Shown piece by piece: positions 2,166-63,153 of a stretch of DNA of 64,000 bases. This DNA comes from Patescibacteria group bacterium (GTDB lineage: Bacteria; Patescibacteriota; Microgenomatia; UBA1400; PJMF01): NCBI GenBank assembly GCA_049322655.1, contig JBMORP010000006.1:512410-576409 (forward strand). The letters run 5' to 3'. The notes beneath the pieces are model-generated. The model saw nothing but the letters and a program-made list of their open reading frames with translations. It was not told the origin of the DNA and ran no database searches. How positions within the stretch are numbered: position 1 is the first letter of the stretch; each line of letters starts with the position of its first letter. The position numbers and the translations under genes were made by a program.

Positions 2166-2186
2166 TTAGCGAAATTTGCATTTTTT

Positions 2187-2210: not shown

Positions 2211-2391
2211 TAATAAATTCTCGACGAATTTACTATTAGATGACATATCTCTTCACTTTTTAAAGAACAAACTAATCAAGAAGCTTGCGCTCCTTGTTGT
2301 TCGCCCCGAGTAATTAGAATATCTCCTAAAACCCGTGAACGAATAACAAACAGCTCAAATTTTTAAACTTATTGATTATGTTAAGTTGCGG

Positions 2392-33971: not shown

Positions 33972-34825
33972 ATTTCTTTGAAATCAATTATTTTAGCTTG
34001 ATCTCCTCCTATAGAAAAAGAGTTTAAATATACTTTAATGTCACTACCAATTCCAAGTTTAGTACCATCCAATAAATAATAATTATCAGCATTTTTATAA
34101 GCTTTTAATCTTAAATTAATTGTTAAATCTCTATAATCTGGATCAATAACCTTAATATTTTCTCCCCTAATATCAGAAAACTCATAATTAGAATGAATTT
34201 CACTGGTAAAATCCATTACTTCAGCTAAAATCCTGCCTTGTTCATCACTCATGATCATCCCCTTTTCTAATTTTGCAGCCACATCTAAATCAACCCACTT
34301 TACTTTAACCAAAACAGCCAAATCAACTTGGTCTGAAATCAATTTATCACCAATAAAAGAAATTACTCCATCGACATTGTTTTTCCCAAAAGTCAAATTT
34401 AAACTTCTGCCTACTTCAATAGGCTCAGAATTAAAAAGATACAGGCCTCTTTTGTTATCAAAATATGAACGTACATCCAAAACCACAAAAATAGTACTTC
34501 TACCCTCTCCATCTTCAAATGTTTGCTTATCAACAACTTCAGCAATTGTTTCGCCAAAAGTGTTTTTAGCCACATCACCAATAGCTAAATCATTAATTAA
34601 CCAATAACTAGTTTGTTTTTCAGTTTGCCACCACCATTCTTCATTAGAGATAAAAAGGCCAACTCGCACCCATTCTTCTTTTTTGATTAATTTTGAAATA
34701 ATAAGACTTGAAAATATAGCAAAAACAATCAAAATAATTAAAAAATCTAACCTTTTTAATTTTTTTGAAAAAGAAACAACACTAGTGAAAAATTTTTTAC
34801 TAAACATATCAAAACAATCCTTCAT
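33968..34825 (-). CDS. N-terminal TM-anchored secreted protein with an EWWW motif (DUF4330-like); paralog of 15743-16597
   Basis: See the entry for 15743-16597. Confidence 0.55.
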   Translation of the reverse strand: MKDCFDMFSKKFFTSVVSFSKKLKRLDFLIILIVFAIFSSLIISKLIKKEEWVRVGLFISNEEWWWQTEKQTSYWLINDLAIGDVAKNTFGETIAEVVDKQTFEDGEGRSTIFVVLDVRSYFDNKRGLYLFNSEPIEVGRSLNLTFGKNNVDGVISFIGDKLISDQVDLAVLVKVKWVDLDVAAKLEKGMIMSDEQGRILAEVMDFTSEIHSNYEFSDIRGENIKVIDPDYRDLTINLRLKAYKNADNYYLLDGTKLGIGSDIKVYLNSFSIGGDQAKIIDFKEI

Positions 34826-36260
34826 CGCAGATTATATCGGAAAAGGGATAAGTTTCACCTACAATTTATTTCCTTACTTTTTTATAACTCTAACTTTTCT
34901 GTTAAGTTTACTATTTGTCAGCTCAAATTTAACTCTATTAATAACAAGTATTATTTTTTCTTTTGTTCTCTACCAAAAAACCAAGAATTTAGAACTAACC
35001 ATTTTTTTAGGACTAATAACTACACTACCATTTGCTAAAGGTAAAACTTTTGAACTCATTTTGTTAGAAAACAATCAGGTTTCAACAAATTCATTATTTG
35101 ATATAGACTATTCTTTCCCAATCTACCTAAGTGATATTTTTTTGTTCGCGCTAATTTGGGTTTTAATTCGTAATAAAAATATAGTAAATAAAATAAAAAA
35201 CTTTAATATTTCAACAAGCCAAACCTGGTTTGTAGTTTTTATATTGATAACCATAGTATCAGGGTTTTTTTCTAAATTTCCGATTGTTTCTTTACTATCA
35301 TCAGCACAAATACTCAGATTACTTTTATTAATGGTTATTCCTTTAATTATAAATTCAAAAATAAAAATAAAAACAATAATAGAAACTACTGTAGCCTCGG
35401 TTTTATTTCAGACTCTGTTAATCTTTCTACAAAAAATAAACAATGGAACTCTAGGAATATACATAGAATCATTTATGCTTAAAGAAGAATTTGGCATCAG
35501 ATCAAATGAAAACATTGATATTCTTAGATTAACTGGCTCATTTTTTGAACCAAGTATTTTGGGTACTTTTCTTTTGATAAACTTCTCTTTGCTATTAAAT
35601 AGCCTCAAAAAGTTAAAAAATAATAAAATTAAAAAATTAGTTTTATTAGCATTATTAGGTTGTTTCATAGGAATTATTCTTACTGCTAGTAGAGGAATTT
35701 ATTTACTTTTCTTTGCTTATATCATTTATGAAATAATATTGGTAGTCAAAAATAGGAATTTAAAATTAAAAACAATAAACAAGAACTTATTATTGGCAAT
35801 AATAATCATAGTTGCTGTTTTTTTACCATATTTTTCCAATAGAATCTTTGATTTTTCAAAAATATTTTCTAAACTAGGAAGTGGTACTTACAGATTACAG
35901 TTAGCTGAAGAGTCTTTTTTATTAGCTAAAAATAATCTCTTAGGAGTTGGAATTAATCTTTCTCCTTATAATTTTGCAATACAAAAATTTTCAAAAGAAA
36001 TAATTTTTGATCCAGCTCATCCTCATAATATATTTTTTCAAATTTTAGCTGAAACAGGCTTTATTGGTTTAACAATATTTAGCTTTTTTATATTTTATAC
36101 AATCAAAGAAATTCCACAATTAAACAAAAATTTGTTTTTTTACCCAATAATTTTGTTTTTAATAGCCGCACAGTTTTACCCAATTTTTATTAATCAATCA
36201 GAAATTACTAGTTATTTGTTTTTATTCATAGGACTAAGTAAAAAATATAGCAAATCATGA
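34683..36260 (+). CDS. O-antigen ligase/Wzy-like polytopic membrane protein (525 aa); start uncertain (the ORF overlaps the divergent upstream gene by 143 nt)
   Basis: Multi-TM; DPAHPHNIFFQILAETGFIGLTIFSFFIF matches the Wzy_C-type signature. Confidence 0.6.
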   Translation: MINFEIIRLENIAKTIKIIKKSNLFNFFEKETTLVKNFLLNISKQSFIADYIGKGISFTYNLFPYFFITLTFLLSLLFVSSNLTLLITSIIFSFVLYQKTKNLELTIFLGLITTLPFAKGKTFELILLENNQVSTNSLFDIDYSFPIYLSDIFLFALIWVLIRNKNIVNKIKNFNISTSQTWFVVFILITIVSGFFSKFPIVSLLSSAQILRLLLLMVIPLIINSKIKIKTIIETTVASVLFQTLLIFLQKINNGTLGIYIESFMLKEEFGIRSNENIDILRLTGSFFEPSILGTFLLINFSLLLNSLKKLKNNKIKKLVLLALLGCFIGIILTASRGIYLLFFAYIIYEIILVVKNRNLKLKTINKNLLLAIIIIVAVFLPYFSNRIFDFSKIFSKLGSGTYRLQLAEESFLLAKNNLLGVGINLSPYNFAIQKFSKEIIFDPAHPHNIFFQILAETGFIGLTIFSFFIFYTIKEIPQLNKNLFFYPIILFLIAAQFYPIFINQSEITSYLFLFIGLSKKYSKS

Positions 36261-37381
36261 AAAAACTTTTTATTATTCCTTTTGAACTTCCCTGGGATTG
36301 GACAGCTGACTATCAGCGACAGACTATTTTTGAGCTAAACAAAAATAATAACAAAGTTTTGGCTTACATGAATAAAGATAGTTATTTATTTTTAAAAGTA
36401 AAACAAAAAAAAAACTATCCCAATATAAAAAATACTGATTTTTATCAACCACGAAATTTGCTGCCTTTTCAACGTTTTGAGCTTGTTCAATCTCTGAATC
36501 AGCTAATTAACCTGATAATAATCAGGTTAAAAAACCTTAACAAAAAGATTTATCTTTGGTCTTTTGATCCAGATTTTTATTTGTTGAATTACTTAGCAAG
36601 GTTTTTGGGGATAATCACTATTTACGATTGTGTTGATTATCACAGCCATAACAATCAAACAATTAACCAACAAATAAGAACTAAAGAAGATAAAATCATT
36701 AAAAATTCTAAATATTTCTTTGTTAACTCAAGAGAACTAGCTAAAATTCATAGCAAAAAAAGAAAACCAACTGCAATTGTCCCACAAGGTTTTGATTTAA
36801 CTACTTTTGAAACAAAATTAAAAAAACTAGCTTTTTTTAATAAAATTAAAAAACCTATTATTGGTTATGTTGGAGGTATAAACTATCGACTCGATTATGA
36901 TTTGTTAATTAAGTTAGCCAAAAACAATCCTAATTGGCAATTTGTTTTTTGGGGACCAATACAAAAACAAGATGACGATCAACAAAATCAAGTAGAAGAG
37001 AAACAAAGAACTCTTTTTTCACTAGCAAATGTTTCTGTTAGTCAAAGTGAACGTAAAAATATCCCCGCCGTAATTAATCACTTTGATGTTTGTCTAATTC
37101 CCTACAAAACTAATTATCTATTTAACAAACATTGTTACCCAATGAAAATTTTTGAGTATTTTTACCTAAAAAAACCAATCATTTCGGCTCCAATTAATGA
37201 GTTAAAAAGATTTCCTGAAAAACTAATTTCAATTGCTAAAGACTACTCATCTTGGCAAAAAAAAATTGAAGAAAAAATAGAAAAAAAAGAATTAGACACA
37301 GTTAAAAAAACTAAGCAAAGGCTAGCTTTTGAAAATTCTTGGAAAAATAAAATTTCTAATATTTTAGAAAAAATTAATTAA
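36257..37381 (+). CDS. glycosyltransferase, GT-B fold (family 1/4-like); paralog of 9351-10457
   Basis: Whole-length similarity to the 9351-10457 product; C-terminal CYPMKIFEYFYLKKPIIS. Confidence 0.55.
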   Translation: MKKLFIIPFELPWDWTADYQRQTIFELNKNNNKVLAYMNKDSYLFLKVKQKKNYPNIKNTDFYQPRNLLPFQRFELVQSLNQLINLIIIRLKNLNKKIYLWSFDPDFYLLNYLARFLGIITIYDCVDYHSHNNQTINQQIRTKEDKIIKNSKYFFVNSRELAKIHSKKRKPTAIVPQGFDLTTFETKLKKLAFFNKIKKPIIGYVGGINYRLDYDLLIKLAKNNPNWQFVFWGPIQKQDDDQQNQVEEKQRTLFSLANVSVSQSERKNIPAVINHFDVCLIPYKTNYLFNKHCYPMKIFEYFYLKKPIISAPINELKRFPEKLISIAKDYSSWQKKIEEKIEKKELDTVKKTKQRLAFENSWKNKISNILEKIN

Positions 37382-38076
37382 CTGATATTTTTCTGTAAAA
37401 CACCTAAACCAGAACCTAAAAACTCTAAAGAAAAAGCATTTTTCTTCGATATTTTTTGCCAAAGTTTCCAAACTCCATACTCTCCTTCTGGTTTTTTACC
37501 TTTAATAGAGATATCGTGAAAAGCAATAAATCCGCCTGCCCTTAACATTGGCCAAAAAAGTTCATAATCTCTGGAAACTCCTTTAAAAGAGTGGTCACCA
37601 TCTATATAGATGTAATCATATTTAACTTTTTTATTGGCAATTTTTTTAAATTCTTCAGTAGTCATGACATGCAAAGTAATAAAGTTTTGTAAGTCAAATC
37701 TTAGAAAAGCAGTTTTGCCAGCTTCTGTTTTCCAATAAGCCTCTCCAGTCCAATGATTGGCGTCTTCATCCCCAAAACCAGCGTCAACAAAATCAACATG
37801 ACCAAATCCGTTATCCTTACACGCTTGAGCCAAAATACCAGGAATATAGCCATGTCTAGAGCCAATACATAACACATTCCTTGGCTTAATTGCTCTTAAT
37901 AAACCATAGTGAACCCAGCCATAGCCTAAATCTGCTGTAGTAAAATTAGCTCTATGACCATATTCATCAACTCTAAATTGATGCATTAATTTTTTGATTT
38001 TTATTTCAGAAACAAGAGATTTCCCTTCTTTAATTAAAGAGATTATTTTTTTTATTTTAGTTTTTATTCCTAACAT
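37378..38076 (-). CDS. class I SAM-dependent methyltransferase-like protein (CmcI/TylF-like); paralog of 31885-32712
   Basis: VLCIGSRHGYIP...VDFVDAGFGDED...YDYIYIDGDHSFKGVSRDYELFWPMLRAGGFIAFHDI. Confidence 0.55.
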   Translation of the reverse strand: MLGIKTKIKKIISLIKEGKSLVSEIKIKKLMHQFRVDEYGHRANFTTADLGYGWVHYGLLRAIKPRNVLCIGSRHGYIPGILAQACKDNGFGHVDFVDAGFGDEDANHWTGEAYWKTEAGKTAFLRFDLQNFITLHVMTTEEFKKIANKKVKYDYIYIDGDHSFKGVSRDYELFWPMLRAGGFIAFHDISIKGKKPEGEYGVWKLWQKISKKNAFSLEFLGSGLGVLQKNIS

Positions 38077-38195
38077 AAAATCTTTTTAAACTGTTAAACT
38101 AGCACTTATTCTATCAAAATAAATATAAGTTTTATTAGAAAAAAGAACTGATTTCTCCTAAATAAAAAATATGCTACACTTTCTAGCTAAAGGCC

Positions 38196-38966
38196 ATGAT
38201 AAATACTATTTCTAACCCTAACACCAGTAGTAACACTTCTTTTCCGATGGGAAATATCCCTTCTGATCCAGTAGCTAATATTCCTAGTGCTGAAGAAAAA
38301 GTTGAAAAAAAATTTTCTAAAGACCAAAAAAAGAAAATGCCTTCCAAATATATTCTGGCAGGAATTTTGCTATTAATCTTAACCATTGGTGGTGGAATTA
38401 GCATGTACTTAATAAATAGAAGCCAAGATTTAAGGCAACAAGCCGATGTTGGCGATTATACGAGGCCTCCTGCTGGTGGCGACTGTTCTGGTTCATCAGC
38501 AGCTCAATGTCAAGGTAAGAACCCTGGAGATAGTTGTGGAGGAGATGGTACTTGTCGAGACTTACCTAATCAAATAGGTAATGATGGAAAAGTAAAGTGT
38601 ACTTGTGACACTGGCTCTACCAATCCTACAACAGTACCAACCACAGCACCAACAATTGAGCCGACCACTGCCCCAACTGGCGAACCAACAACCAGCCCAA
38701 CAGAGGAGCCAACGGGGGAACCAACAGCAGAACCGACAAATTCTGATGATAGTGGCAACGATGATGATAGCGATAGTAGTTCAGAAAGTTACTCAGAGAG
38801 TAATAGTTCCGCCACAGTTAACATCAGTACCAATACTACTACAACTACTAGCCAACCAAACCTGCCTTCACAACTACCTCAATCTGGTCCTGAAGACTGG
38901 TTGAAATACTTACAAATTGGACTAGGAGCACTCGGAGCTGGAGCTCTTCTGCTACTTTTCCTCTAG
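38196..38966 (+). CDS. Cys-rich, Pro/Thr- and Ser-rich cell-surface protein, paralog 1 (N-terminal signal-anchor plus C-terminal LPQSGPEDW-hydrophobic tail)
   Basis: N-terminal TM followed by SQDLRQQADVGDY. A module with 9 Cys. A (TAPT/EPT)n linker. A D/S-rich region. C-terminus LPSQLPQSGPEDWLKYLQIGLGALGAGALLLLFL. Confidence 0.7.
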   Translation: MINTISNPNTSSNTSFPMGNIPSDPVANIPSAEEKVEKKFSKDQKKKMPSKYILAGILLLILTIGGGISMYLINRSQDLRQQADVGDYTRPPAGGDCSGSSAAQCQGKNPGDSCGGDGTCRDLPNQIGNDGKVKCTCDTGSTNPTTVPTTAPTIEPTTAPTGEPTTSPTEEPTGEPTAEPTNSDDSGNDDDSDSSSESYSESNSSATVNISTNTTTTTSQPNLPSQLPQSGPEDWLKYLQIGLGALGAGALLLLFL

Positions 38967-38983
38967 AAAATTAAAAATAAATT

Positions 38984-39017
38984 AAAGGCCTGTTCTTGAA
39001 AACAGGCCTTTTTTTAT
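38984..39017 (+). terminator. rho-independent terminator
   Basis: aaaggcctgtt-cttgaa-aacaggcc followed by ttttttt, 18 nt after the stop codon. Confidence 0.8.
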
Positions 39018-39085
39018 TGAACATATATCCTAATTGACTGACCCCTCAAAAAAGTTATATCCTTATTAAGGAATGATTTAAGTTT

Positions 39086-40069
39086 ATGGAATCAGGAAAT
39101 CCAAATAACACCGAATTAACTCAACAAACACATACTTCTGCTGATAACAAAGAAGTTAAGTTTGCTCAAAGTCCAAAGTCAAACAAAAAAATTGTTTTGG
39201 GCTTGATTTCTTTGTTGTTTTTGGTGATTGGTGGTGGGATTGGGCTTTACTTAACAGAAGTCAGTCAGGATTTACGACAACAAGCCGATACTGGTGACTA
39301 CAGCAATTATGAATGTAACTTGAATGATCCAAATGCTTGTGGAGGAAATCCAGAACAATGTCACTGTACTGGCGGTGACGCCTGTACTGGTACAGAATGT
39401 GATGATTCTATTCAAACCTCCTGTGAACTACAAGGTAGAGCTTACTGTACAAATTGGCAGGGTCAAGGAACAACTTGTTGTGTCCCGGGATATGTTTGCT
39501 GTCCTAACTCAGATGGTTGTTGCGCTGGTGGAGGACCAACTAACCCTCCCCCTCCGACTGAACCTCCAACAACTATTACCCCAACTAGAACTCCCACTCC
39601 AAGTCCTACCGTAACAATTACTCCCACACCGACCCTTACTGCAACTCCAACACCTACCACAACTATCACTCCAACTCCGACTACTCCAGTTGGACCTCAG
39701 TGTTTGGATATTAAAATGTACAGCATGACCAATGGACAAAGTGATATTGTTAACCTGACAAATAATGATGATGCAAATTTAGTACCTGGAGAAAGTATTG
39801 TTAGATTAGTTTGTAGTAGTACAGATGGTCCTACTTTACCAGCAGGCTACTTCTATGCCTTTAGAATTTATGAGCCATGTGGCAGTGGCAACCACTACGA
39901 ACCTCTAGAATTTGTTAATAATGAAGGAGAAAATGGTATCAACTATACCATTGGTTTCTCTGGAGACTATATGGCTCAATGTGCAATTTGTGAGGTTGAT
40001 GCTGCAGGAGACACGGTTTGTGGTTGGGAAAGTTTAACACCAACAGCCTGTGACAGTGATTTAGACTAA
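39086..40069 (+). CDS. Cys-rich Pro/Thr-rich secreted protein, paralog 2 (same N-terminal anchor motif, lacks the C-terminal sorting-like tail)
   Basis: TM then SQDLRQQADTGDY. About 30 Cys in repeated CxxC/CC arrangements. A (TPTP)n linker. C-terminal domain of about 130 aa ending CDSDLD. Confidence 0.7.
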   Translation: MESGNPNNTELTQQTHTSADNKEVKFAQSPKSNKKIVLGLISLLFLVIGGGIGLYLTEVSQDLRQQADTGDYSNYECNLNDPNACGGNPEQCHCTGGDACTGTECDDSIQTSCELQGRAYCTNWQGQGTTCCVPGYVCCPNSDGCCAGGGPTNPPPPTEPPTTITPTRTPTPSPTVTITPTPTLTATPTPTTTITPTPTTPVGPQCLDIKMYSMTNGQSDIVNLTNNDDANLVPGESIVRLVCSSTDGPTLPAGYFYAFRIYEPCGSGNHYEPLEFVNNEGENGINYTIGFSGDYMAQCAICEVDAAGDTVCGWESLTPTACDSDLD

Positions 40070-40070
40070 A

Positions 40071-40829
40071 ATGATAGACACTAACAATAACACACCAGTT
40101 CAAAATGAGTTGCCACAGAACAAAGTGGTTGCTGGTATTCCTAGTTTTACAAAAAAAGAAGAAAACCAACCAAAAAGAAGTATTAAAAATACTGTTTTAC
40201 TTGTTCTTGGTTTATTAGCTTTTTTTGTTACTGGTGTGGCTGGAGTAATGATTGCTCAAAAACAATTCTTAGATGATTCTATTACCGCTCCCAATGCTCC
40301 ATCATCTCAACCAGCTGCCTACATTAGCCAAGAAAGTTGTCATATTTCATTTACTGTACCAGGCCAAGAGGTTACCCCTACTCCAACCCCAGAACCAGCT
40401 GAATGTGGTTCTACTCCCTGTGAAACTGATAATGATTGTTCAACAGACCTCATCTGTGTAACAGCCGAAGATGGAGAAAACTACTGCTCAATGCCAGAAT
40501 ATGAAGAAGCCTGTATTAATAACCCCGGAATTAATACTTGTTGTAACGAACCAACCAATACCCCCACTCCGACTCCAACGCCAACCCAAGGAAGCTCCTC
40601 CAGTAGCTCCAGCTCAAGTTCTAGTAGTTCTTCTGTCACCGTAAAGGTTGAAAACAACACCAAAATCTCTGGCAATACTAACACCAGCAAAACTACCACT
40701 ACTACCAAAGGCCAACAACCAGAATATCCTGAAACTTTGCCTCAATCAGGACCTGAAGACTGGTTGAAATACCTCCAAATTGGTTTGGGAGCACTTGGAG
40801 TAGGAGCTTTATTAATCCTCTTCCTCTAA
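40071..40829 (+). CDS. Cys-rich, Pro/Thr- and poly-Ser surface protein, paralog 3 (different N-terminal anchor, conserved C-terminal tail)
   Basis: ECGSTPCETDNDCSTDLICVTAEDGENYCSMPEYEEACINNPGINTCC module, shared with paralog 4. An S16 tract. C-terminus LPQSGPEDWLKYLQIGLGALGVGALLILFL. Confidence 0.7.
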   Translation: MIDTNNNTPVQNELPQNKVVAGIPSFTKKEENQPKRSIKNTVLLVLGLLAFFVTGVAGVMIAQKQFLDDSITAPNAPSSQPAAYISQESCHISFTVPGQEVTPTPTPEPAECGSTPCETDNDCSTDLICVTAEDGENYCSMPEYEEACINNPGINTCCNEPTNTPTPTPTPTQGSSSSSSSSSSSSSSVTVKVENNTKISGNTNTSKTTTTTKGQQPEYPETLPQSGPEDWLKYLQIGLGALGVGALLILFL

Positions 40830-41012
40830 TGATTGACTAACCTGGCTAAAAAGAGCTATCCTTAATAGGATATAAACATCGATGTCTGATTTTGTAGTTG
40901 AAAAAAACCAAGCAAATACCCAAGCAAACCCTTCAGAAAAAAAGAGGGTTTTTCTAGTTTCAAAAATAAAAAATCAAACAATCTAAATAATAAAAAGAAA
41001 ACAAAATTAATT

Positions 41013-41984
41013 TTGGGTTTTCTGTCATTGTTGCTATTGATTCTTGGTGGGACTATTGGTCTTTACATGACGAAGATAAGCCAAGATTTAAGGCAGCAAG
41101 CAGATGTTGGTGACTATACTGGCACTGGTGACGTTTGTACCGCCAGTGGTGGTCAATGGGTAGGAAACTTATGTTGGATGGGAGGAACAGCTACTTGTGC
41201 TGGGCCAGGACAAGGCGGTGGAGATCCATGTGCTGCTAATGGTGGAATTTGTTCTGGAACTAATGTAATTAGATGCCAATGTGGTAACGCTTGGGTCGCT
41301 GGTAAAGCTGGTTCAAGTTGTAGTGATTTATGTGGTGAGGCAAACCTTAACTGTGATGATGATTGTACCCCTACCAATCCACCAAATAATCCTACTAACC
41401 CACCACCAAATCCAACCAATACTCCAACCCCAAGACCAACTAGAACACCCACCCCTACGCCCAGTGCTCCACCTAGTCCAACGCCAACTTTACCTCCCAA
41501 TGTAACCCCAACCATTACTCCAACCATAGTGCCAACTATTATTCCTGGTTGTGGCTTTGGTCCATGTACGGATAATAGTGGTTGTGATGATGACCTAATC
41601 TGTGTAACGGCTGATAATGGCAATAGTTACTGTTCACTCCCAGAATATGAAAATGCTTGTATTTCTGAACCAGGCGTTGAAGCTTGTTGTACAGCTCCGA
41701 CTGTCACTCCAACCACCCCACCTAACGAACCAACCTCAACTCCCACTGCCACTCCAACCCAAACAAGTAGCAGTAGTAGTTCTTCATCTAGCTCTAGCAG
41801 TAGCACTGCATTGGTCAACATTACTAATAACACCACTACTTCAACAGCTACCAATAGATATGTCCAAACAACACCTACTTTGCCTCCAGAATTACCAAAA
41901 AGTGGCCCAGAAGATTGGTTGCAATACTTACAAATTGGTTTAGGCGCTCTTGGAGTTGGTGTACTATTGTTACTATTCTTATAA
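41013..41984 (+). CDS. Cys-rich, Pro/Thr- and poly-Ser surface protein, paralog 4. The ORF as called starts at a TTG; the probable true start is ATG 40882 in another frame (a -1 frameshift is needed at A_AAA_AAG, 40936-40946).
   Basis: TM then SQDLRQQADVGDY. Shares the Cys module with paralog 3. C-terminus LPPELPKSGPEDWLQYLQIGLGALGVGVLLLLFL. The upstream frame encodes MSDFVVEKNQANTQANPSEKK, which resembles the paralog N-termini. Confidence 0.65.
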   Translation: MGFLSLLLLILGGTIGLYMTKISQDLRQQADVGDYTGTGDVCTASGGQWVGNLCWMGGTATCAGPGQGGGDPCAANGGICSGTNVIRCQCGNAWVAGKAGSSCSDLCGEANLNCDDDCTPTNPPNNPTNPPPNPTNTPTPRPTRTPTPTPSAPPSPTPTLPPNVTPTITPTIVPTIIPGCGFGPCTDNSGCDDDLICVTADNGNSYCSLPEYENACISEPGVEACCTAPTVTPTTPPNEPTSTPTATPTQTSSSSSSSSSSSSSTALVNITNNTTTSTATNRYVQTTPTLPPELPKSGPEDWLQYLQIGLGALGVGVLLLLFL

Positions 41985-42123
41985 GAATAATAAAACAAAA
42001 TTTCATAACAAACCCCTTTTCCCCAAGGGAAAGTGTCTCAGGTTAACCTGACTACAAAAGAACTAATCAAACTACCTACCTGGTTCTTAGTTTTTTGTTT
42101 TATAATTACCTCCTAGAGAAAAA

Positions 42124-42196
42124 GCGTGCGTAGCTCAATTGGCAGAGCGCCAAGCTTATACCTTGGTGGTTCTAGGTTCAAGTCCTAGCGCACGCA
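42124..42196 (+). tRNA. tRNA-Ile (anticodon TAT)
   Basis: GCGTGCGTAGCTCAATTGGCAGAGCGCCAAGCTTATACCTTGGTGGTTCTAGGTTCAAGTCCTAGCGCACGCA folds as a cloverleaf. The anticodon stem is CCAAG/CTTGG with loop CTTATAC, giving anticodon TAT. T-loop TTCAAGT. Discriminator A. No CCA encoded. Confidence 0.75.
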
Positions 42197-42216
42197 CTAA
42201 AATAGTAAGAAAAGCT

Positions 42217-43266
42217 ATGAAAAAAAATCTTAAAAATATTATTCAAAAATTTAAAACAATTTGGCAAACCAAAAAATGGCTAGTGATCACTTCTCTGATT
42301 GTTTTGCTGGTAGCAGGCAATAAACTTTACCAAAATAAAAAAAACCAACCAAACTTAACTTTTGCTTATCCAACCAAAGAGACTATTACTAAAACCCTAG
42401 ATGTATCTGGAGTTATTGATGCTAAAGAAAAAGTTAGCTTACGCTTTGCTGCTGGGGGCAAAGTCGTTTATCTGGGAGCACAAGAGGGAGATGCTATTAA
42501 AAAATGGCAAACTATTGCCACGATTGATCAAAACACTGCTTTAAAAACTAAAGAAAAATACCTCAATAGTTACTCCAAAGAACGATTAGATTGGGATCAA
42601 AGACAAACTGATATTGGTGATGGCACTACTGTTGATGAAACTTTGCAAAGAACAATTGATAAAGAACAATATGACTTGAATAACTCTGTCTTGGATGTTG
42701 AATTAGCAGCAATTTCTATTACTAACAACACCATAACCGCTCCTTTTAGTGGGATTTTGGTTAAAAGTCCAACTCCTGTAACTGGAGTACAATTACTGGC
42801 CACAGATACTTTTGACTTAGTTAACCCAGAAACTTTAATTTTTAGAGCTTTGGTTGATGAAGCTGATATTGCCTTAGTTTCTAAAAACCAAACAGCTGAA
42901 ATTCAGCTCGATGCTTATCCAGATGATGAAAAACTCACCAGTTCAGTAAGTTACATTTCTTACCAAAGTGTGCCCTCTTCTAATGGAACTTCGTTTGTTG
43001 TTGAATTTCCTATTTCCTCAATTGATCTTAGTAAATATCGATTGGGCATGAACGGTGACGTAGAAATAAAACTAGAAACAAAGGAAAATGTCTTAACCAT
43101 TCCATTAATTGCTATTAAAGAAAGAGATGGCAAGATTTTTGTGGAAGTTAAAACGGGTACCGCCACTACAGAAGAAAAAGAAATTGAGATTGGATTAGAA
43201 ACAGATGAAAAAGTTGAAGTGCTTAGTGGTTTAACTGAAACAGATGAAATTGTTATTCCAGAATAA
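42217..43266 (+). CDS. efflux transporter periplasmic adaptor subunit (HlyD/MacA-like membrane fusion protein)
   Basis: N-terminal TM, then coiled-coil and beta-barrel regions. Immediately upstream of a MacB-type ATPase and permease. The ORF-track start at 42139 runs into the tRNA and is rejected. Confidence 0.7.
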   Translation: MKKNLKNIIQKFKTIWQTKKWLVITSLIVLLVAGNKLYQNKKNQPNLTFAYPTKETITKTLDVSGVIDAKEKVSLRFAAGGKVVYLGAQEGDAIKKWQTIATIDQNTALKTKEKYLNSYSKERLDWDQRQTDIGDGTTVDETLQRTIDKEQYDLNNSVLDVELAAISITNNTITAPFSGILVKSPTPVTGVQLLATDTFDLVNPETLIFRALVDEADIALVSKNQTAEIQLDAYPDDEKLTSSVSYISYQSVPSSNGTSFVVEFPISSIDLSKYRLGMNGDVEIKLETKENVLTIPLIAIKERDGKIFVEVKTGTATTEEKEIEIGLETDEKVEVLSGLTETDEIVIPE

Positions 43267-43271
43267 ATTAA

Positions 43272-43964
43272 ATGTCTAAGAAAATAGTTGCTAAACCAGT
43301 TGTTCTAGAACTCAAAGATGTTGTTAAGGAATATACTTTGGGTACACAAAAAATTAAAGCCCTTGATGGTGTTTCCTTGAAAGTAAAGGCAGGAGATTTT
43401 TTATCGGTCATGGGACCATCTGGATCGGGAAAATCTACTTTTTTACAAGTTGCTAGTATTCTAGCCTCTCCAACAACTGGAAAAATCTTTATTAATGGCA
43501 AAGATACAACTACATACAATGAAAATGAGCGAGCTCATCTTAGAAATAAAGAGATTGGTTTTGTTTTTCAAAACTTCAACTTACTAGCCAAAACATCTGC
43601 TTTAGAAAATGTGGCTTTACCTCTTGTTTATGCTGGAATCGAAGAAAAAACTCGGTTAGAAATAGCCAAAAATATGTTAGAGAAACTTGGCTTAGGTGAC
43701 AGATTAAATAATACTCCGGCTCAACTTTCTGGAGGCCAACAACAAAGGGTAGCTATTGCCAGAGCCCTAATTAATAACCCTTCAATTATCTTTGCTGACG
43801 AGCCAACCGGCAACTTAGATTCAAAATCGGGCAAAGAGGTGGAAAAAATTCTCAAAGAACTAAATCAAGAAGGCAAAACCATCATCATGGTCACCCACGA
43901 ACATGATGTTGCCAAGATTGCCAGATCAAGTATCGAGATTCATGATGGGAAAATCAAGAAATGA
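43272..43964 (+). CDS. ABC transporter ATP-binding protein (MacB/LolD-type)
   Basis: Walker [10 protein letters not shown], signature [15 protein letters not shown], Walker [13 protein letters not shown]. Confidence 0.9.
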
Positions 43965-45169
43965 AGTTAAAAAATACCTTCTTAGTGGCTCTCAAAGCTA
44001 TCATGGTCAATAAGGGTAGATCTTTTTTAACCATGCTCGGAGTAATTATTGGTGTTTCGTCAGTAGTTTTATTAACTTCAATTGGAACTGGCTTACAAGC
44101 TTTTGTAACTGAACAGTTTGAAGAACTAGGTTCCAATAACATTATTGTCCTACCAGGAGATATTCTAGGAGAAGGTGGTGGTTTTAACCGAGAAGCTCAA
44201 CAAAATGCTCTCATTAATAACAAACTAAAACTAAGTGATGTTAAAGATATTGAAAGCCTAAGAGAATATGTTGAGTTTGCTCTACCAATGAGTACTCAAT
44301 CAGATACTGCTGCTTTTAGAGATGAAACAAAAAATGCCTCAGTAATCGGCACTTATTATCAATTCGAAGAATTCATTTCTGGAGTTGAAAAAGGCCGATT
44401 TTTCAACAAAACTGAAGACCAAGGAGCCGAAAGAGTTGCTGTCCTTGGCTGGGAAATAGCTGATCAATTATTTGGTCAAATTGATCCAATTGGTAAAAAA
44501 TTTAAACTAGGCACTCAAACTTTTAAAGTTGTTGGTGTGGCAGAAAAGCAGGGAGGTGGTTTTGGTGGACCTTCTTTTGATACTTATATCTATATTCCTC
44601 TAGAAACAGCCTCTAGAATTTATGACTCGGATAAAATTGTTGAAATCATGGTAAAAGCCAAAGATAAAGATAAGATGCAGGAAAGTATTACTGCTATAGA
44701 AGAAACTCTAAGCAAAAGGCTAAAAGATGATGAATTCAGTGTCATTGACCAAACAGAGATCTTGAACACTATCAACACTATTCTCGGGGTTTTAACTGCC
44801 GGACTTGGTGGAATCGCGGCAATCTCGCTAGTAGTTGGAGGCATTGGCATTATGAACATCATGCTGGTCTCAGTTACTGAAAGAACTAGAGAAATTGGTC
44901 TGAGAAAAGCTCTAGGAGCCACTCCCAACCAAATTTTATTTCAATTTTTGATTGAGTCAGCCCTCCTCTCTATCATGGGTGGATTAATTGGCTTAGCAAT
45001 TGCTTACTTAGGTTCATTGGGCCTACAAGCATTTTTCCCGGCTAAAGTAACCATGGAGGCAATTATGTTGGCTTTTGGGGTCTCTGCTGCTGTAGGCATC
45101 ATTTTTGGTGTTGCTCCAGCCAAAAGAGCTGCTAACCTCTCTCCAATTGAAGCCCTGAGATATGAGTAA
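43961..45169 (+). CDS. ABC transporter permease (FtsX/MacB-like, 4 TM with a large extracytoplasmic domain)
   Basis: N-terminal TM, a periplasmic domain of about 220 aa, then a C-terminal FtsX-like 3-TM bundle (LVVGGIGIMNIMLVSVTERTREIGLRKALGA). Confidence 0.85.
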   Translation: MKLKNTFLVALKAIMVNKGRSFLTMLGVIIGVSSVVLLTSIGTGLQAFVTEQFEELGSNNIIVLPGDILGEGGGFNREAQQNALINNKLKLSDVKDIESLREYVEFALPMSTQSDTAAFRDETKNASVIGTYYQFEEFISGVEKGRFFNKTEDQGAERVAVLGWEIADQLFGQIDPIGKKFKLGTQTFKVVGVAEKQGGGFGGPSFDTYIYIPLETASRIYDSDKIVEIMVKAKDKDKMQESITAIEETLSKRLKDDEFSVIDQTEILNTINTILGVLTAGLGGIAAISLVVGGIGIMNIMLVSVTERTREIGLRKALGATPNQILFQFLIESALLSIMGGLIGLAIAYLGSLGLQAFFPAKVTMEAIMLAFGVSAAVGIIFGVAPAKRAANLSPIEALRYE

Positions 45170-45210
45170 CTTTACTTTTTGTCCAGACTTTGCCAAACTA
45201 GATTGAACTC

Positions 45211-45567
45211 ATGAAAAAAAAACTTATTATTGGTCTAGCCATTTTTTTAATCTTAGCTGGCTATGTCTATGCTAGTTATAACAACCTATTACCAGAAAAC
45301 ATCCCCACTATTCCCAAAGAAAAAATTGAAGAAGTTAAAACAAACACCCCAACTTTTAACTCTGTCCAAGGAGAAACTCAAACTCAATTAGAAATTTTTT
45401 CTGCAAGAGCTAAAGAGCTTGGCTCTTATGCTCAAGAAGCCTTAAAAACAGGTATTCAAGAAGATAATTCTCAGCCAGTTCATGAAAAAGCTATTGAATA
45501 TGGCCAATATATTTATTGCAAACAAATCGTTGAGAGCTACGAGGTTAATCAACCAAACCAAAACTAA
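45211..45567 (+). CDS. small secreted hypothetical protein (signal peptide/TM)
   Basis: N-terminal hydrophobic segment; no recognised family. Confidence 0.4.
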   Translation: MKKKLIIGLAIFLILAGYVYASYNNLLPENIPTIPKEKIEEVKTNTPTFNSVQGETQTQLEIFSARAKELGSYAQEALKTGIQEDNSQPVHEKAIEYGQYIYCKQIVESYEVNQPNQN

Positions 45568-48261: not shown

Positions 48262-50598
48262 TTACAATCTAGCCCTAACCTGAATCTCAGCTTCAACCAC
48301 TTCTCTATCCTTACCATATTTAAGTCTAGACAGCTGCTTAATCATCTCAGCCAGCTTAGGATTCATCCTGGCCTTAACTTCATCCATATCCTTCTCTAAA
48401 GACATACTAAAGGCTGGCACTGGCTCATTGCCGACGATGGTTTTAATATAAACATGAAATTTTTCAACATTAGCTAAATCATTTTCAGTAAAAGTGGGTG
48501 TAAATTCATGTTGCAAGAAATTGGCATCAGTGACACCAACTCTAAAAGAAACAATCGTGCCAACGTTACCAAAGACAGCGTTTTTTACTTCTTCATCAAT
48601 TTGACCAATAAATTGATTAGCCACAGTTAAGTTGAGCTTATATTTACGAGCTTCAGAAAGAATGGTGGCAAAATCTTCTGTCGCATAGTTTTGAAATTCA
48701 TCAACATATAAAAAGAAGTCTTGACGTTGATCCATCGGAATATCTTGACGACTCATTGCGGCAGTCAAAACCTTTGGCACCAGAATCAAACCTAAAAATT
48801 TAGCATCTTCTTCACCAAGAATACCTTTGGATAAATTACATAAAATAATCTTCTTTTCATCCATTGCTTTTCTGAAATTAAATGCACTATATGGCTGACC
48901 AATAATGTTTCTCATGGTCTTATTGGTTACAAAACGACCAAATTTAGACACAATGTAATCCAAAACTTCTGACTTATGAAAATCACTGGTTTGGGCCATT
49001 TGATCTGTCCAGTAACGTTTAACTACAGGGTCTTTAACTAAAGGCAATAACTCTTCAACAAATTTTTGATCGGTCAAAGCCCGGACTAACTCAATAAAGG
49101 TGGAACCTTCCTTAGACATAATCGTTAGCATGGCATTACGAATAGCATGCTCAAAACGAGGCCCAATAATACCAGTACGATGTGGGTCATAAAGTTTGTA
49201 CATTAAACCAATCACCGAACTTACCACAAAATGTTTTTGTTCCTCTGTGTCAGCCTCCATCATATTTAAACCCATCGGTCTAGCCAGGTCAGATGGGTTA
49301 AAGTAAATGACATCTTCAGCTCTTTCAGGCGGAACAAGTTGCAAAATGTCTTCAACAAACTCTCCGTGAGGATCAATGGCACAAACCCCCTGACCACTCT
49401 CGATATCTTGCATAATCATTTCTTTTAAAAACTCAGACTTACCAGTACCAGTTTTACCAATGATGTACATGTGTCGTTGTCTATCCTTGAGACTCATATA
49501 AACATTTCTGACTTCTCCACGGTAAACAGATTTGCCCAAAAACAAACCCTGGTTAGGAATTAAATGAGGTGCTGGAGCATTCTTGGCTGTCAACCATTTA
49601 ATGTGATGGGTCTCAACTGTTTTATTAGGAAAATGAAAGACCGTTGCTAATTCTTCAGTATTCAAAACAAAACTCCCCCAACCAAAAAGAGGCATATAAC
49701 GATAGATAAAATCAATCATGAATAAATGCTTAATAAAAAACCAAGGTTTTTCAAACTCATTGTATGCAGAGGTAAATTGAGCAAAAGCTCCATGAATATT
49801 GCTTAGGTGAGACTCTGCTGCTACTTCTGTTGGTGAAGAGACCACCATTCTAATGGAAACTCTAAAACCTGGTTTTTCCACCTTAGTTGTTACTGCTTCC
49901 ATTTCTTTGGGGTCATGACCATAGGTAGCTTTTTGTGGATCGGCCTCTCGTTTCTTTTCATTCTTGATGTAATTTCTACCTTTTTTCTGCCATTTATTCC
50001 CCTCAGGGTGAATTAAAATTTGCAAAATCGCCCCTTCTCCTTCTCCCATTTTGGAAAAAGCAGAAGTAATTAAAGACAAACCGTCTGTTGGTAAATCTTT
50101 ATAAGTTTTTAAAGGCAAATATTGGGCATCTTTTAATTTCAAAGAGGTGAAAGCTACCCGACCTTTTTCATTAAAAATATTTACCTCATCTTGTTCTTTA
50201 ATATCAGCGAAAGGATAAGCTCCATGAATTTGTTTCTCGACTAAATCTCTAATTTTTTTGGAACAACTAACATAAAAACCGATTTCTTCTTTTAACCCAA
50301 CCAACTCAAAACTAATCAACTCCTCTGGTTCCAGAAATGAAAAAAAACCACTTTTCTTTAAAGAGTGCAAACCAGCAAACATTTGCTCAGCGGCATCAAT
50401 CTTGATTTCATTATCCTTTGGTAAACGAACTAAGAGCGTCACAAAGTCTAAAGAATAATCTTCTCTTCTTCTGTGCTTAAACCATTGAAAAAACAAATAA
50501 CTCAGAAAGAATAAGGCTACCCCCAATACCAACACCAATAATAGATTCATAAAAAACAAAGATACTTGATTGACAAAGTCAGCAGAACCAAACATCAT
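48262..50598 (-). CDS. membrane-anchored P-loop ATPase, DUF87/TraG-VirD4 (type IV coupling protein)-like, 778 aa
   Basis: Two N-terminal TM helices. Walker A IIGKTGTGKSE. Walker B FFLYVDEFQNY. The motif NLTVANQFIGQ is typical of the TraD/TrwB/HerA-like family. Confidence 0.55.
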   Translation of the reverse strand: MMFGSADFVNQVSLFFMNLLLVLVLGVALFFLSYLFFQWFKHRRREDYSLDFVTLLVRLPKDNEIKIDAAEQMFAGLHSLKKSGFFSFLEPEELISFELVGLKEEIGFYVSCSKKIRDLVEKQIHGAYPFADIKEQDEVNIFNEKGRVAFTSLKLKDAQYLPLKTYKDLPTDGLSLITSAFSKMGEGEGAILQILIHPEGNKWQKKGRNYIKNEKKREADPQKATYGHDPKEMEAVTTKVEKPGFRVSIRMVVSSPTEVAAESHLSNIHGAFAQFTSAYNEFEKPWFFIKHLFMIDFIYRYMPLFGWGSFVLNTEELATVFHFPNKTVETHHIKWLTAKNAPAPHLIPNQGLFLGKSVYRGEVRNVYMSLKDRQRHMYIIGKTGTGKSEFLKEMIMQDIESGQGVCAIDPHGEFVEDILQLVPPERAEDVIYFNPSDLARPMGLNMMEADTEEQKHFVVSSVIGLMYKLYDPHRTGIIGPRFEHAIRNAMLTIMSKEGSTFIELVRALTDQKFVEELLPLVKDPVVKRYWTDQMAQTSDFHKSEVLDYIVSKFGRFVTNKTMRNIIGQPYSAFNFRKAMDEKKIILCNLSKGILGEEDAKFLGLILVPKVLTAAMSRQDIPMDQRQDFFLYVDEFQNYATEDFATILSEARKYKLNLTVANQFIGQIDEEVKNAVFGNVGTIVSFRVGVTDANFLQHEFTPTFTENDLANVEKFHVYIKTIVGNEPVPAFSMSLEKDMDEVKARMNPKLAEMIKQLSRLKYGKDREVVEAEIQVRARL

Positions 50599-62974: not shown

Positions 62975-63153
62975 AAATAATTAACTCTTAATAACGACAA
63001 AGCTGCAGCCACTCCCAAAACGATTTTCCACATGTGAATAATAAAGTAACTAGCAAGACCACTTAATGAACTAGGTAGTAAGTGAGTCTGCTCTAACTTG
63101 GCTTGACGTTTTGCTTCTGTTTCTAGAACTTTTAAGAATTGCTGTTCTTTCAT
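62971..63153 (-). CDS. 60-aa single-TM protein, candidate minimal anti-sigma factor
   Basis: Start overlaps the sigma-factor stop. N-terminal charged helix plus one TM. Confidence 0.35.
   Translation of the reverse strand: MKEQQFLKVLETEAKRQAKLEQTHLLPSSLSGLASYFIIHMWKIVLGVAAALSLLRVNYL

What the first reader, a model, noticed from the sequence alone, without database searches (positions are those of the whole stretch)
38196..41984. Tandem array of four paralogous Cys-rich, Pro/Thr-linker, poly-Ser proteins with a conserved C-terminal LPxSGPEDW-plus-hydrophobic-tail motif (a sorting-signal-like element I do not recognise)
Seen directly:
- Four adjacent same-strand genes.
- Each has a long variable cytoplasmic N-terminus and a single TM.
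- Three have the conserved block SQDLRQQAD(V/T)GDY just outside the membrane.
- Next come small disulfide-rich modules. One 48-aa module (C..PC.D...C..DLICVTA.[DE][GN].[NS]YCS.PEYE.ACI..PG...CC) is shared by paralogs 3 and 4.
- These are followed by (T/E/A-P-T)n linkers and Ser/Thr tracts of 13-16 residues that use mixed codons.
- Three paralogs end with LP(Q/K)SGPEDWL(K/Q)YLQIGLGALG(A/V)G(A/V)LL(L/I)LFL at the extreme C-terminus, with no basic tail.

Interpretation:
- A conserved short motif followed by a C-terminal hydrophobic helix is the general grammar of sortase, exosortase, archaeosortase and rhombosortase substrates.
- This motif is not LPXTG, PEP-CTERM, PGF-CTERM or GlyGly-CTERM.
- No sortase-like gene (TLxTC active site) is present in the window.
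- Paralog 2 has the same N-terminal anchor but no C-terminal tail. This suggests the two ends act independently.
- The array could be an uncharacterised surface-protein family and sorting system of this lineage.
Basis: seen in the sequence. Interest (0 to 1): 0.82.

Follow-up and report, generated by a model that had tools for sequence, protein, structure and literature searches.

The report
LPXTG-like anchor tails in Patescibacteria
Four neighbouring genes of an uncultured ultra-small bacterium encode cysteine-rich surface proteins, and the puzzling tail on three of them is a lineage-specific version of the well-known LPXTG cell-wall anchoring signal, not a new sorting system, although it has some unusual features.

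Summary
Four same-strand genes (38196-41984) encode paralogous surface proteins, and three end in LP(Q/K)SGPEDW plus a hydrophobic tail. The claim that this is not LPXTG does not hold.

- A tail profile finds 196 protein clusters, always at the extreme C-terminus. It also finds 41 loci in Pacebacteria, Woesebacteria and other Patescibacteria genomes.
- Across the family the motif is LPx[T 56% / S 38% / A 6%]G.
- Thr variants pass NCBI's LPXTG_anchor cut-off and are already annotated as LPXTG anchors. The window's Ser variants score 10.8 bits against a cut-off of 15.9, and PGAP calls P1 and P2 "hypothetical".
- LPKSG is a known natural sortase-motif variant in Firmicutes.
- Sortase is reported as near ubiquitous in Microgenomates.

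Unusual features remain:
- No member has a basic end.
- 140 of 160 tails have exactly 25 residues after the Gly.
- The flanks and tail glycines are strongly conserved.
- Most N-termini are long signal-anchors rather than classical signal peptides.
- In 28 of 36 loci the genes sit directly upstream of a MacAB-like ABC exporter, near a VirD4-like ATPase.

No sortase gene was found in the window or any fetched locus, so the partner enzyme is inferred. Verdict: a new variant of a known kind, of moderate interest.

The parts
38196..38966 (+). P1: type-A N-terminal signal-anchor (TM 38349-38414, SQDLRQQADVGDY 38421-38459), small Cys-rich region, Pro/Thr linker, Ser/Asp-rich stretch, tail
   Evidence: NCBI MFZ5438264.1, locus tag ACOZAK_04405, named 'hypothetical protein'.
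39086..40069 (+). P2: type-A anchor (TM 39191-39256), Cys-rich module, Pro/Thr linker, C-terminal 127-aa disulfide-containing Ig-like beta-sandwich. It has no tail.
   Evidence: None of the 13 orthologues has the tail. AF2 pLDDT 86, no PDB match better than E 0.015.
40071..40829 (+). P3: type-B anchor (TM 40191-40256, APNAPSSQPAAY 40287-40322), one 8-Cys module (40404-40544), PT linker, Ser14 (40593-40634), tail
40882..41984 (+). P4: full gene including the frameshifted N-terminus. The mechanical ORF is 41013-41984. It has a type-A anchor, a large Cys-rich region, an 8-Cys module (41550-41690), poly-Ser (41763-41807) and the tail.
40937..40943 (+). A7 homopolymer where intact alleles have A8. 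This is the frameshift site in P4.
   Evidence: L046 and L047, two other sequencing runs; the orthologue in sister MAG L004 is intact
38853..38963 (+). P1 C-terminal sorting-type tail QPNLPSQLPQSGPEDWLKYLQIGLGALGAGALLLLFL (LPQSG at 38874-38888)
40716..40826 (+). P3 tail (LPQSG at 40737-40751). It matches TIGR01167 positions 1-28 of 34 at 10.8 bits.
41871..41981 (+). P4 tail (LPKSG at 41892-41906)
42217..45169 (+). MacA-like periplasmic adaptor (42217-43266), ABC ATPase (43272-43964) and MacB/FtsX-type permease (43961-45169). This is the conserved downstream neighbour of tail genes.
   Evidence: Present on the same strand downstream in 28 of 36 GTDB loci.
45211..45567 (+). Small membrane-anchored protein (orf118) with a conserved C-terminal ...EYGxYxYCxQVVxxYE. 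It co-occurs with the ABC operon.
   Evidence: No Pfam or NCBIfam hit.
48262..50598 (-). 778-aa VirD4/TraD-like coupling ATPase (DUF8128/DUF87/TrwB_AAD_bind), convergent with the ABC operon and conserved in the same loci
34683..38076 (.). Wzy_C/O-antigen-ligase-like protein (34683-36260 +), GT1 glycosyltransferase (36257-37381 +) and Methyltransf_24 (37378-38076 -), immediately upstream. This is the end of a glycan-synthesis cluster of about 33 kb.

Best explanation
The array encodes fast-diverging cell-surface proteins of a Pacebacteria-like member of the Patescibacteria (Microgenomates group).

Proposed mechanism:
1. Each protein is inserted N-in/C-out by a long, Lys-flanked N-terminal signal-anchor. 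The topology is inferred from sequence.
2. Outside the membrane it displays small disulfide-rich modules on Pro/Thr and Ser-rich stalks. These stalks are plausibly O-glycosylated, given the adjacent Wzy_C and glycosyltransferase cluster (inferred).
3. In P1, P3 and P4 the C-terminal block is this lineage's version of the LPXTG cell-wall sorting signal. A hydrophobic helix holds the protein in the membrane while the lineage's sortase cuts between Ser/Thr and Gly and links the protein to peptidoglycan (inferred by analogy, not shown).
4. P2 belongs to a stable tail-less subfamily. It keeps only the N-terminal anchor and carries an Ig-like head.

Shown here: the anatomy, the family-wide LPx[T/S/A]G logo, the match to the LPXTG_anchor model, the taxonomic range and the synteny.
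For: - The tail aligns to TIGR01167 LPXTG_anchor positions 1-28/29. T variants (P0006, P0013, P0017) score 16.1-16.2 against a cut-off of 15.9; S variants score 10.8-11.3.
- NCBI names P0006 'LPXTG cell wall anchor domain-containing protein'. JGI names P0023 and P0027 'LPXTG-motif cell wall-anchored protein'.
- In the family logo (140 tails) L is 96%, P 94%, G 100%, and position 4 is T 56% / S 38% / A 6%.
- T and S variants coexist in one genome.
- Acidic residues follow the Gly. From my own knowledge, not tested here, this is common in classical LPXTG signals.
- The tail occurs only at the extreme C-terminus in 196 clusters whose passenger regions are unrelated.
- Synonymous divergence between paralogue tails shows purifying selection.
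- The hosts are Pacebacteria, Woesebacteria and other Patescibacteria MAGs. Pacebacteria are listed under Microgenomates, and sortase (PF04203) is reported as near ubiquitous there (PMC6744442). A closed Microgenomates genome also encodes a sortase (PMC7143001).
- LPKSG/LPXSG are natural sortase-type motifs in S. haemolyticus and in E. faecium PrpA.
- No other C-terminal sorting-signal model appears for these proteins even at E <= 10.
Against: - No K/R occurs in the last six residues of any of 120 tails. The classical signal has a basic end, and the model match stops 5-6 positions short.
- The window proteins are below the curated cut-off.
- The tail is far more stereotyped than a classical LPXTG signal. 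It has exactly 25 residues after Gly in 140 of 160 cases, near-invariant G15/G20/G22, and conserved QPxLP upstream and PEDWxx[W/Y]LK downstream. Part of this follows from selecting hits with the tail profile itself.
- A few members have LY/LV instead of LP.
- Most members have a 35-150-residue cytoplasmic N-terminus and a 22-residue TM rather than a cleavable signal peptide. A sortase product could therefore remain membrane-tethered.
- No sortase was found in the window, in the next 10 kb, or in 52 related loci covering about 0.9 Mb. The expectation from random placement is only about one.
- Co-occurrence with sortase in the same genomes was not tested directly.
Confidence: 0.6

Rival explanations
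1. The block is an uncleaved C-terminal membrane anchor. The protein stays in the membrane by both ends as a surface loop. The conserved LPx[ST]GPEDW...GLxxLGxG helix is kept for sequence-specific packing with a membrane partner, for example the MacB-type permease/adaptor or orf118 encoded just downstream.
For: - No basic end, and a fixed 25-residue length.
- A glycine pattern (G15, G20, G22) at 96-100% inside the helix.
- The N-terminal anchor looks permanent, because the tail-less P2 family relies on it alone.
- Tight synteny with the MacAB-like operon: 28 of 36 loci, gaps as small as 25-300 bp.
Against: - The most conserved short element is exactly the sortase pentapeptide LPx[T/S]G, with an invariant Gly. 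A plain anchor would not need it.
- T variants meet the curated LPXTG model.
- The conservation of the helix is partly circular, because hits were selected by the profile.
- Synteny alone does not show physical interaction.
Confidence: 0.17
2. The tail is the signal of a dedicated, still unrecognised non-sortase sorting enzyme, analogous to exosortase, archaeosortase or rhombosortase.
For: - A stereotyped signal of fixed length, restricted to a few proteins per genome (1-3 per locus, one or two loci per genome). This resembles dedicated CTERM systems.
- The window proteins fall below the LPXTG cut-off.
- No sortase lies nearby.
Against: - No PEP-CTERM, GlyGly-CTERM, PGF-CTERM or other CTERM model hits these proteins even at E <= 10.
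- No polytopic protease-like gene is conserved in the locus. The conserved neighbours are MacA/MacB/ABC, a 118-aa protein and a VirD4-like ATPase.
- The motif grades continuously into canonical LPxTG within the same family.
Confidence: 0.1
3. The proteins are cargo or accessory components of the adjacent MacAB-like exporter and type IV secretion apparatus, for example released Cys-rich effectors, and are not wall-anchored structural proteins.
For: - Conserved gene order: tail genes, then MacA/ABC/MacB, then orf118, with a convergent VirD4-like ATPase.
- A VirB2-like pilin array lies about 13 kb further on.
Against: - The proteins have their own Sec-type N-terminal anchors and a C-terminal anchor signal.
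- The upstream neighbours vary.
- Some tail genes lie at second loci without the ABC operon (L012, L019, L040, L042).
Confidence: 0.08

Closest known systems
LPXTG cell-wall sorting signal of sortase substrates (NCBIfam TIGR01167 LPXTG_anchor; Pfam PF00746 Gram_pos_anchor)
   Same: - A C-terminal pentapeptide LPx[T/S]G with an invariant Gly, followed by acidic residues and a single hydrophobic helix at the very end of a secreted, modular, Pro/Thr- and Ser-rich surface protein.
- Thr variants of the same family pass the curated model and are annotated as such.
   Different: - The window copies have Ser at position 4.
- There is no basic C-terminal end in any member.
- There are exactly 25 residues after Gly.
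- The flanks are conserved (QPxLPxx before the motif, PEDWxx[W/Y]L[K/Q]xGLxxLGxG after it).
- N-termini are mostly long signal-anchors, not cleavable signal peptides.
- The family is confined to Patescibacteria of the Microgenomates type.
LPXSG/LPKSG natural variants in Firmicutes (S. haemolyticus SdrD-like protein; E. faecium PrpA)
   Same: The same Ser-for-Thr substitution in a predicted sortase motif on Pro-rich or Ser-rich surface proteins (PMC7137321, PMC4682149).
   Different: Those are single proteins with the rest of the classical signal and ordinary or YSIRK signal peptides. Here Ser is a common state (38%) of a whole family.
Dedicated C-terminal sorting signals (PEP-CTERM/exosortase, PGF-CTERM/archaeosortase, GlyGly-CTERM/rhombosortase)
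   Same: The grammar of a short motif plus a C-terminal helix; a stereotyped length; few substrates per genome; a neighbouring glycan-synthesis cluster.
   Different: - None of the corresponding NCBIfam models hits these proteins.
- Those signals end in a basic cluster.
- No exosortase- or rhombosortase-like polytopic gene is present in the window.
Serine-rich-repeat LPXTG glycoproteins of Gram-positive cocci (GspB/Fap1/SraP type)
   Same: An unusually long N-terminal export region, Ser-rich tracts, an LPXTG-type end and nearby glycosyltransferases. This resemblance comes from my own knowledge and was only partly tested.
   Different: - The Ser tracts here are only 13-15 residues.
- There is no KxYKxGKxW signal-peptide match.
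- No SecA2/SecY2 or GtfA/B genes were seen in the window.
LPXTG-anchored mating adhesins of Gram-positive conjugative T4SS (PrgB type)
   Same: A wall-anchor-type surface protein encoded within a few kb of a VirD4-like coupling ATPase.
   Different: There is no sequence or domain similarity to PrgB. A survey reports that no PrgB-like adhesins were detected in Patescibacteria T4SS loci (PMC12102498). The link here is positional only.

Membership tests
LPXTG cell-wall sorting signal (sortase substrate; TIGR01167) | LPXTG pentapeptide about 30-35 residues from the C-terminus | tested here: inconclusive
   The window copies have LPQSG, LPQSG and LPKSG, 30 residues from the end. Family-wide, position 4 is T 56% / S 38% / A 6%, and L, P and G are 94-100% conserved.
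LPXTG cell-wall sorting signal (sortase substrate; TIGR01167) | Hydrophobic membrane-spanning segment after the motif | tested here: met
   W-L-x-Y-L-Q-I-G-L-G-A-L-G-x-G-x-L-L-x-L-F-L runs to the last residue.
LPXTG cell-wall sorting signal (sortase substrate; TIGR01167) | Positively charged C-terminal end | tested here: not met
   None of 120 tails has K/R in the last six residues. HMM matches stop at model position 28-29 of 34.
LPXTG cell-wall sorting signal (sortase substrate; TIGR01167) | Score at or above the curated model cut-off (15.9 bits) | tested here: not met
   Window P3 scores 10.8 bits; P1 and P4 are not reported. Family members with Thr score 16.1-16.2 and pass.
LPXTG cell-wall sorting signal (sortase substrate; TIGR01167) | Cleavable N-terminal Sec signal peptide | tested here: inconclusive
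   The window proteins have 35-52 cytoplasmic residues and then a 22-residue TM, with no obvious AxA site. A few family members do have classical signal peptides. No signal-peptide predictor was available.
LPXTG cell-wall sorting signal (sortase substrate; TIGR01167) | A sortase (PF04203, TLxTC Cys) encoded in the same genome | not testable with these tools
   None was found in the window, the next 10 kb, or 52 related loci. Whole genomes could not be read. The literature reports sortase as near ubiquitous in Microgenomates (PMC6744442).
LPXTG cell-wall sorting signal (sortase substrate; TIGR01167) | Cleavage between T/S and G, and amide linkage to peptidoglycan | not testable with these tools
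   Requires biochemistry or mass spectrometry.
PEP-CTERM / GlyGly-CTERM / PGF-CTERM type signals | Match to the family's C-terminal signal model, with a partner exosortase, rhombosortase or archaeosortase nearby or in the genome | tested here: not met
   No such NCBIfam model was reported for the window proteins at E <= 10, or for ten homologues at E <= 1. No polytopic sortase-like gene was found in the window.
Serine-rich-repeat glycoproteins exported by the accessory Sec system | KxYKxGKxW-type long signal peptide, hundreds of Ser-rich repeats, and linked secA2/secY2/gtfAB genes | tested here: not met
   No NCBIfam match to that signal. The Ser runs are 14 residues. No SecA2/SecY2 genes appear in the annotated window.

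The most novel reading that the evidence does not exclude
The tail proteins, the MacAB-like exporter, the small orf118 protein and the neighbouring VirD4-like ATPase may form one conserved envelope module of Microgenomates-type Patescibacteria. In this reading the tail is a dedicated signal with no basic end. It is read by a co-evolved sortase, or by the MacB-type machine itself. It places hypervariable, disulfide-rich, glycosylated adhesins next to the type IV secretion and host-contact apparatus. These proteins would then be the wall-anchored adhesins that surveys of Patescibacteria T4SS loci reported as missing.
Probability: 0.18. Interest if true: 0.72.

Novelty: new variant of a known kind. 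Interest (0 to 1): 0.45.

Why it matters
- Sortase is one of the protein families reported as enriched in candidate-phyla-radiation bacteria. I found no description of its substrates in the held literature.
- This family gives a concrete, searchable substrate signature: QPxLPxxLPx[T/S]GPEDWxx[W/Y]L[K/Q]xGLxxLGxGxxLLLLL.
- Current annotation misses the signature whenever Ser replaces Thr. PGAP calls P1 and P2 'hypothetical protein'.
- The family marks hypervariable surface proteins, which are likely candidates for host attachment in organisms that live on other cells.
- The missing basic end and the fixed-length, glycine-patterned helix suggest that the rules for retaining and recognising sortase substrates differ in these monoderm ultra-small bacteria.
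- The tight linkage to a MacB-type exporter and a T4SS coupling ATPase is a testable lead.

Tried and rejected
- **Sortase in the window or neighbourhood.** The weak hits (E 0.07-1.4) were the orf118 family, which is not a sortase.
- **Fetching a Patescibacteria sortase seed.** Scanning viral and metagenome contigs with a sortase alignment returned mainly human-gut Firmicutes sortases. The metagenome scan was effectively wasted.
- **Tail-only search in the word-indexed protein database**. It returned only six short fragments. The exhaustive representative search was needed.
- **Look-ups around further homologues**. No sortase was found, only the same ABC/T4CP synteny.
- **Known CTERM sorting families.** No NCBIfam model other than LPXTG_anchor matched the tail.
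- **Fold of the 8-Cys module.** The model is confident (pLDDT 92), but there are only insignificant knottin/Dickkopf-like resemblances (E >= 1).
- **Fold of the P2 head.** It is a generic Ig-like sandwich with TM-score about 0.4 and no specific relative.
- **Gene conversion as the cause of tail identity.** Rejected because of the many synonymous differences.
- **Serine-rich-repeat/accessory-Sec analogy.** Considered and not supported.

Full report
**1. What is in the sequence**

Four + strand ORFs lie at 38196-38966 (P1, 256 aa), 39086-40069 (P2, 327 aa), 40071-40829 (P3, 252 aa) and 41013-41984 (P4, 323 aa). They are richer in G+C (0.41-0.45) than their surroundings (0.27-0.36).

- Each protein has a Lys-flanked 22-residue hydrophobic helix after 35-52 N-terminal residues.
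- SQDLRQQAD(V/T)GDY follows that helix in P1, P2 and P4.
- An 8-Cys module of about 48 aa is shared by P3 and P4.
- There are Pro/Thr linkers.
- The 14-residue Ser runs are written with mixed AGY and TCN codons.
- P1, P3 and P4 share a 37-residue C-terminal block ending in ...LLLLFL with no basic residue.

Two corrections are needed. P3 carries a different juxtamembrane block, APNAPSSQPAAY. P4 is truncated by a frameshift. Its real ATG is at 40882, and an A7 run at 40937-40943 replaces the A8 found in two independent assemblies of a near-identical strain (L046, L047). Those assemblies encode an intact 367-aa protein, P0010. The orthologue in a sister MAG is also intact.

The three tails are only 65-74% identical at the DNA level, and 10-19 of 37 codons differ synonymously. 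Their protein identity is therefore maintained by selection and does not come from a recent copy.

**2. Source organism**

P1 and P2 are identical to NCBI proteins of a "Patescibacteria group bacterium" MAG. Their locus tags are ACOZAK_04405 and ACOZAK_04410, on a 652,381-bp contig, and PGAP calls both "hypothetical protein". An overlapping Logan contig is 100% identical over the 6 kb compared (37001-43000). The closest GTDB genome, L004, is about 92% identical.

**3. The tail is a family-wide signal of the LPXTG type**

Homologues of P3 come from Patescibacteria metagenomes and MAGs. Many of them read LPxTG where the window reads LPxSG: LPETGPENW, LPQTGPADW, LPQTGPEDW.

A profile of 19 tails was run against 1.84 billion representative proteins. 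It finds 196 clusters at E <= 1e-3 and 85 at E <= 1e-10. The match is always at the extreme C-terminus, in proteins of 200-1500 aa with otherwise unrelated sequence.

A scan of GTDB species genomes finds 41 loci. They come from Pacebacteria, Woesebacteria and unclassified Patescibacteria MAGs, several of them mislabelled as "uncultured Pseudomonadales" bins.

The logo from 140 tails is QPxLPxELPx[T 0.56 / S 0.38 / A 0.06]G[P 0.83][E/A]DWxx[W/Y]L[K 0.76 / Q 0.20]xGLxxLGxGAxLLLLL. L, P and G of the pentapeptide are 94-100% conserved. Thr and Ser variants occur side by side in one genome (L002/L003).

The tails align to positions 1-28/29 of the 34-position NCBIfam model TIGR01167 (LPXTG_anchor). 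Thr variants score 16.1-16.2 bits and pass the 15.9 cut-off. Ser variants score 10.8-11.3. NCBI and JGI already name some members LPXTG anchors. No other C-terminal sorting-signal model appears even at permissive thresholds.

LPKSG and LPXSG are documented natural variants of the sortase motif in S. haemolyticus and in E. faecium PrpA.

Sortase (PF04203) is reported as present in more than half of CPR genomes and as near ubiquitous in Microgenomates, the group that contains Pacebacteria. A closed Microgenomates genome also encodes one.

**4. What remains unusual**

- None of 120 tails has K or R in the last six residues. The classical signal ends in a basic cluster.
- The distance from the Gly to the C-terminus is exactly 25 residues in 140 of 160 tails. 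Three glycines inside the helix are 96-100% conserved. Some of this uniformity follows from selecting hits with the tail profile.
- A few members read LY/LV instead of LP.
- Almost all members begin with one of two long signal-anchor types, not a classical signal peptide. Type A often starts M-I-N-V/A, has a Pro-rich cytoplasmic stretch of up to about 150 residues, and has a TM helix followed by Q[DE]xRxQA. Type B has a TM helix ending ISQ[KR]Q followed by APNAPxSxPxA. A few members do have classical signal peptides.
- The P2 family (13 orthologues) has the type-A anchor, never has the tail, and ends in a disulfide-containing Ig-like beta-sandwich. This suggests the N-terminal helix is a permanent anchor. 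If so, tail-bearing members would be tethered at both ends unless another protease releases the N-terminus.

**5. Genomic context**

The 33 kb upstream of the array is a glycan-synthesis cluster. It holds a priming sugar transferase, four Wzy_C/O-antigen-ligase-like proteins, many GT1/GT2/GT4 enzymes, WecG/TagA, a flippase, a Wzm/Wzt-type ABC pair, an epimerase, an aminotransferase and a SipW-like signal peptidase fragment. This makes O-glycosylation of the Ser/Thr/Pro stalks plausible, but it is not shown.

Downstream lie a tRNA-Ile(UAU), then a MacA-like adaptor (RND_mfp, 109 bits against a cut-off of 94.9), an ABC ATPase and a MacB/FtsX-type permease. A 118-aa membrane protein follows. Convergent with these is a 778-aa VirD4/TraD-like ATPase.

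This order is conserved. Of the 36 GTDB loci found through the tail alone that have at least 4 kb of downstream sequence, 28 carry the adaptor/ABC/permease operon on the same strand, 25-8200 bp downstream. Most also carry orf118 and the ATPase. Further look-ups show the same arrangement.

A VirB2-like pilin array lies about 13 kb beyond the ATPase. A survey of Patescibacteria T4SS loci reported that no PrgB-like adhesins were detected.

**6. The partner enzyme was not found**

No sortase-like ORF exists in the window, in the 10 kb beyond it, or in 52 related loci covering about 0.9 Mb. This was tested by motif, by phmmer and by an HMM built from 50 real sortases (best E 0.47). With one sortase per genome of about 1 Mb placed at random, about one hit would be expected. 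The absence therefore shows only that the enzyme is not linked to its substrates. Whole genomes could not be read with these tools, so co-occurrence rests on the literature.

In the same 0.9 Mb no classical LPXTG signal with a basic end was seen. Apart from spurious hits in short ORFs and one divergent PPASG-type tail (P0021, in L050/L051), every LPxTG-type C-terminus there belongs to this family.

**7. Domains**

The 8-Cys module is predicted with pLDDT 92 as a beta-hairpin followed by two short helices. It has no significant relative in the PDB by sequence or fold. At least 53 distinct copies occur, one to four per protein. The P2 head is an Ig-like sandwich (pLDDT 86) with no specific match.

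**8. Verdict**

It is wrong in excluding LPXTG and in inferring a new sorting system.

The best-supported reading (about 0.6) is a Microgenomates-specific variant of the sortase signal. Alternatives are:
- an uncleaved anchor that pairs with a membrane partner (about 0.17);
- a non-sortase sorting enzyme (about 0.1);
- cargo or accessory components of the adjacent MacAB-like/T4SS apparatus (about 0.08).

It should not be filed as a plain member of TIGR01167, because the basic end and the score cut-off were tested and not met. It most likely works like one. It is a new variant of a known kind, of moderate interest. The missing basic end, the long N-terminal anchors and the MacAB/T4SS synteny are the parts worth following.

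Noticed in passing
window 40882-41015 (A-run 40937-40943): P4 is split by a 1-nt deletion in a poly-A tract: A7 here and in the identical Logan contig, A8 in two other runs of a near-identical strain. This is either an assembly error or a phase-variable off switch of a surface protein gene.
   Followed up: partly
window 42217-45567 and 48262-50598; loci L002-L052: Tail-protein genes are almost always directly upstream of a MacA-like adaptor/ABC/MacB-permease operon plus a small conserved membrane protein, next to a convergent VirD4/TraD-like ATPase (28 of 36 GTDB loci). The functional meaning is unknown.
   Followed up: partly
window 45211-45567; 26 homologues in the loci: The orf118 family is a single-TM protein with a conserved C-terminal (H/Q)E(K/R)AxEYGxYxYCxQVVxxYE and one invariant Cys. 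It has no Pfam or NCBIfam match.
   Followed up: partly
window 42124-42197: A tRNA-Ile with anticodon UAU sits between P4 and the MacA-like gene. A mechanical TTG ORF (42139-43266) overlaps it. The real start of the adaptor gene is probably the ATG at 42217.
   Followed up: no
window 4947-37381: A very large glycan-biosynthesis cluster (about 33 kb) with four separate Wzy_C/O-antigen-ligase-like proteins (5574-8048, 12446-13807, 19181-21181, 34683-36260). The last one best matches, below cut-off, an 'O-glycosylation ligase, exosortase A system-associated' model. It may glycosylate the Ser/Thr/Pro stalks.
   Followed up: partly
window 18765-19184 (-): A 139-aa Peptidase_S24-like protein whose best NCBIfam hits are archaeal/SipW-type signal peptidase I (35.8 bits, cut-off 51.85), embedded in the glycan cluster. 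It could be relevant to processing of the unusual N-terminal anchors.
   Followed up: no
family members P0013, P0016, P0017, P0020 and others; window P1 38196-38210: The extreme N-terminus M-[ILV]-N-[AV] (MINV, MINA, MVNA, MLNA; MINT in P1) recurs in many family members of both anchor types. This hints at a conserved cytoplasmic recognition or start-context element.
   Followed up: no
window 1-2167 (-) and 2390-2465 (-): The 5' two-thirds of a 23S rRNA gene is preceded by tRNA-Ala(UGC). No 16S gene is adjacent, because an ORF follows at 2652, so the rRNA genes appear unlinked.
   Followed up: no
L049 7048-9974 / L045 1-2154 (just beyond window end): An array of seven small genes, six of them with T4SS_pilin (VirB2-like) hits, lies next to a sigma-70 gene (63153-63728). 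This matches the pilin arrays described for Patescibacteria T4SS.
   Followed up: no
P0012, P0018, P0021, P0022 (Roizmanbacteria and others): Proteins carrying the same 8-Cys module in other Microgenomates lineages end in different short tails (IPSAG..., PPASG..., LPVSG...) that also lack a basic end. This suggests lineage-specific versions of the same signal.
   Followed up: no
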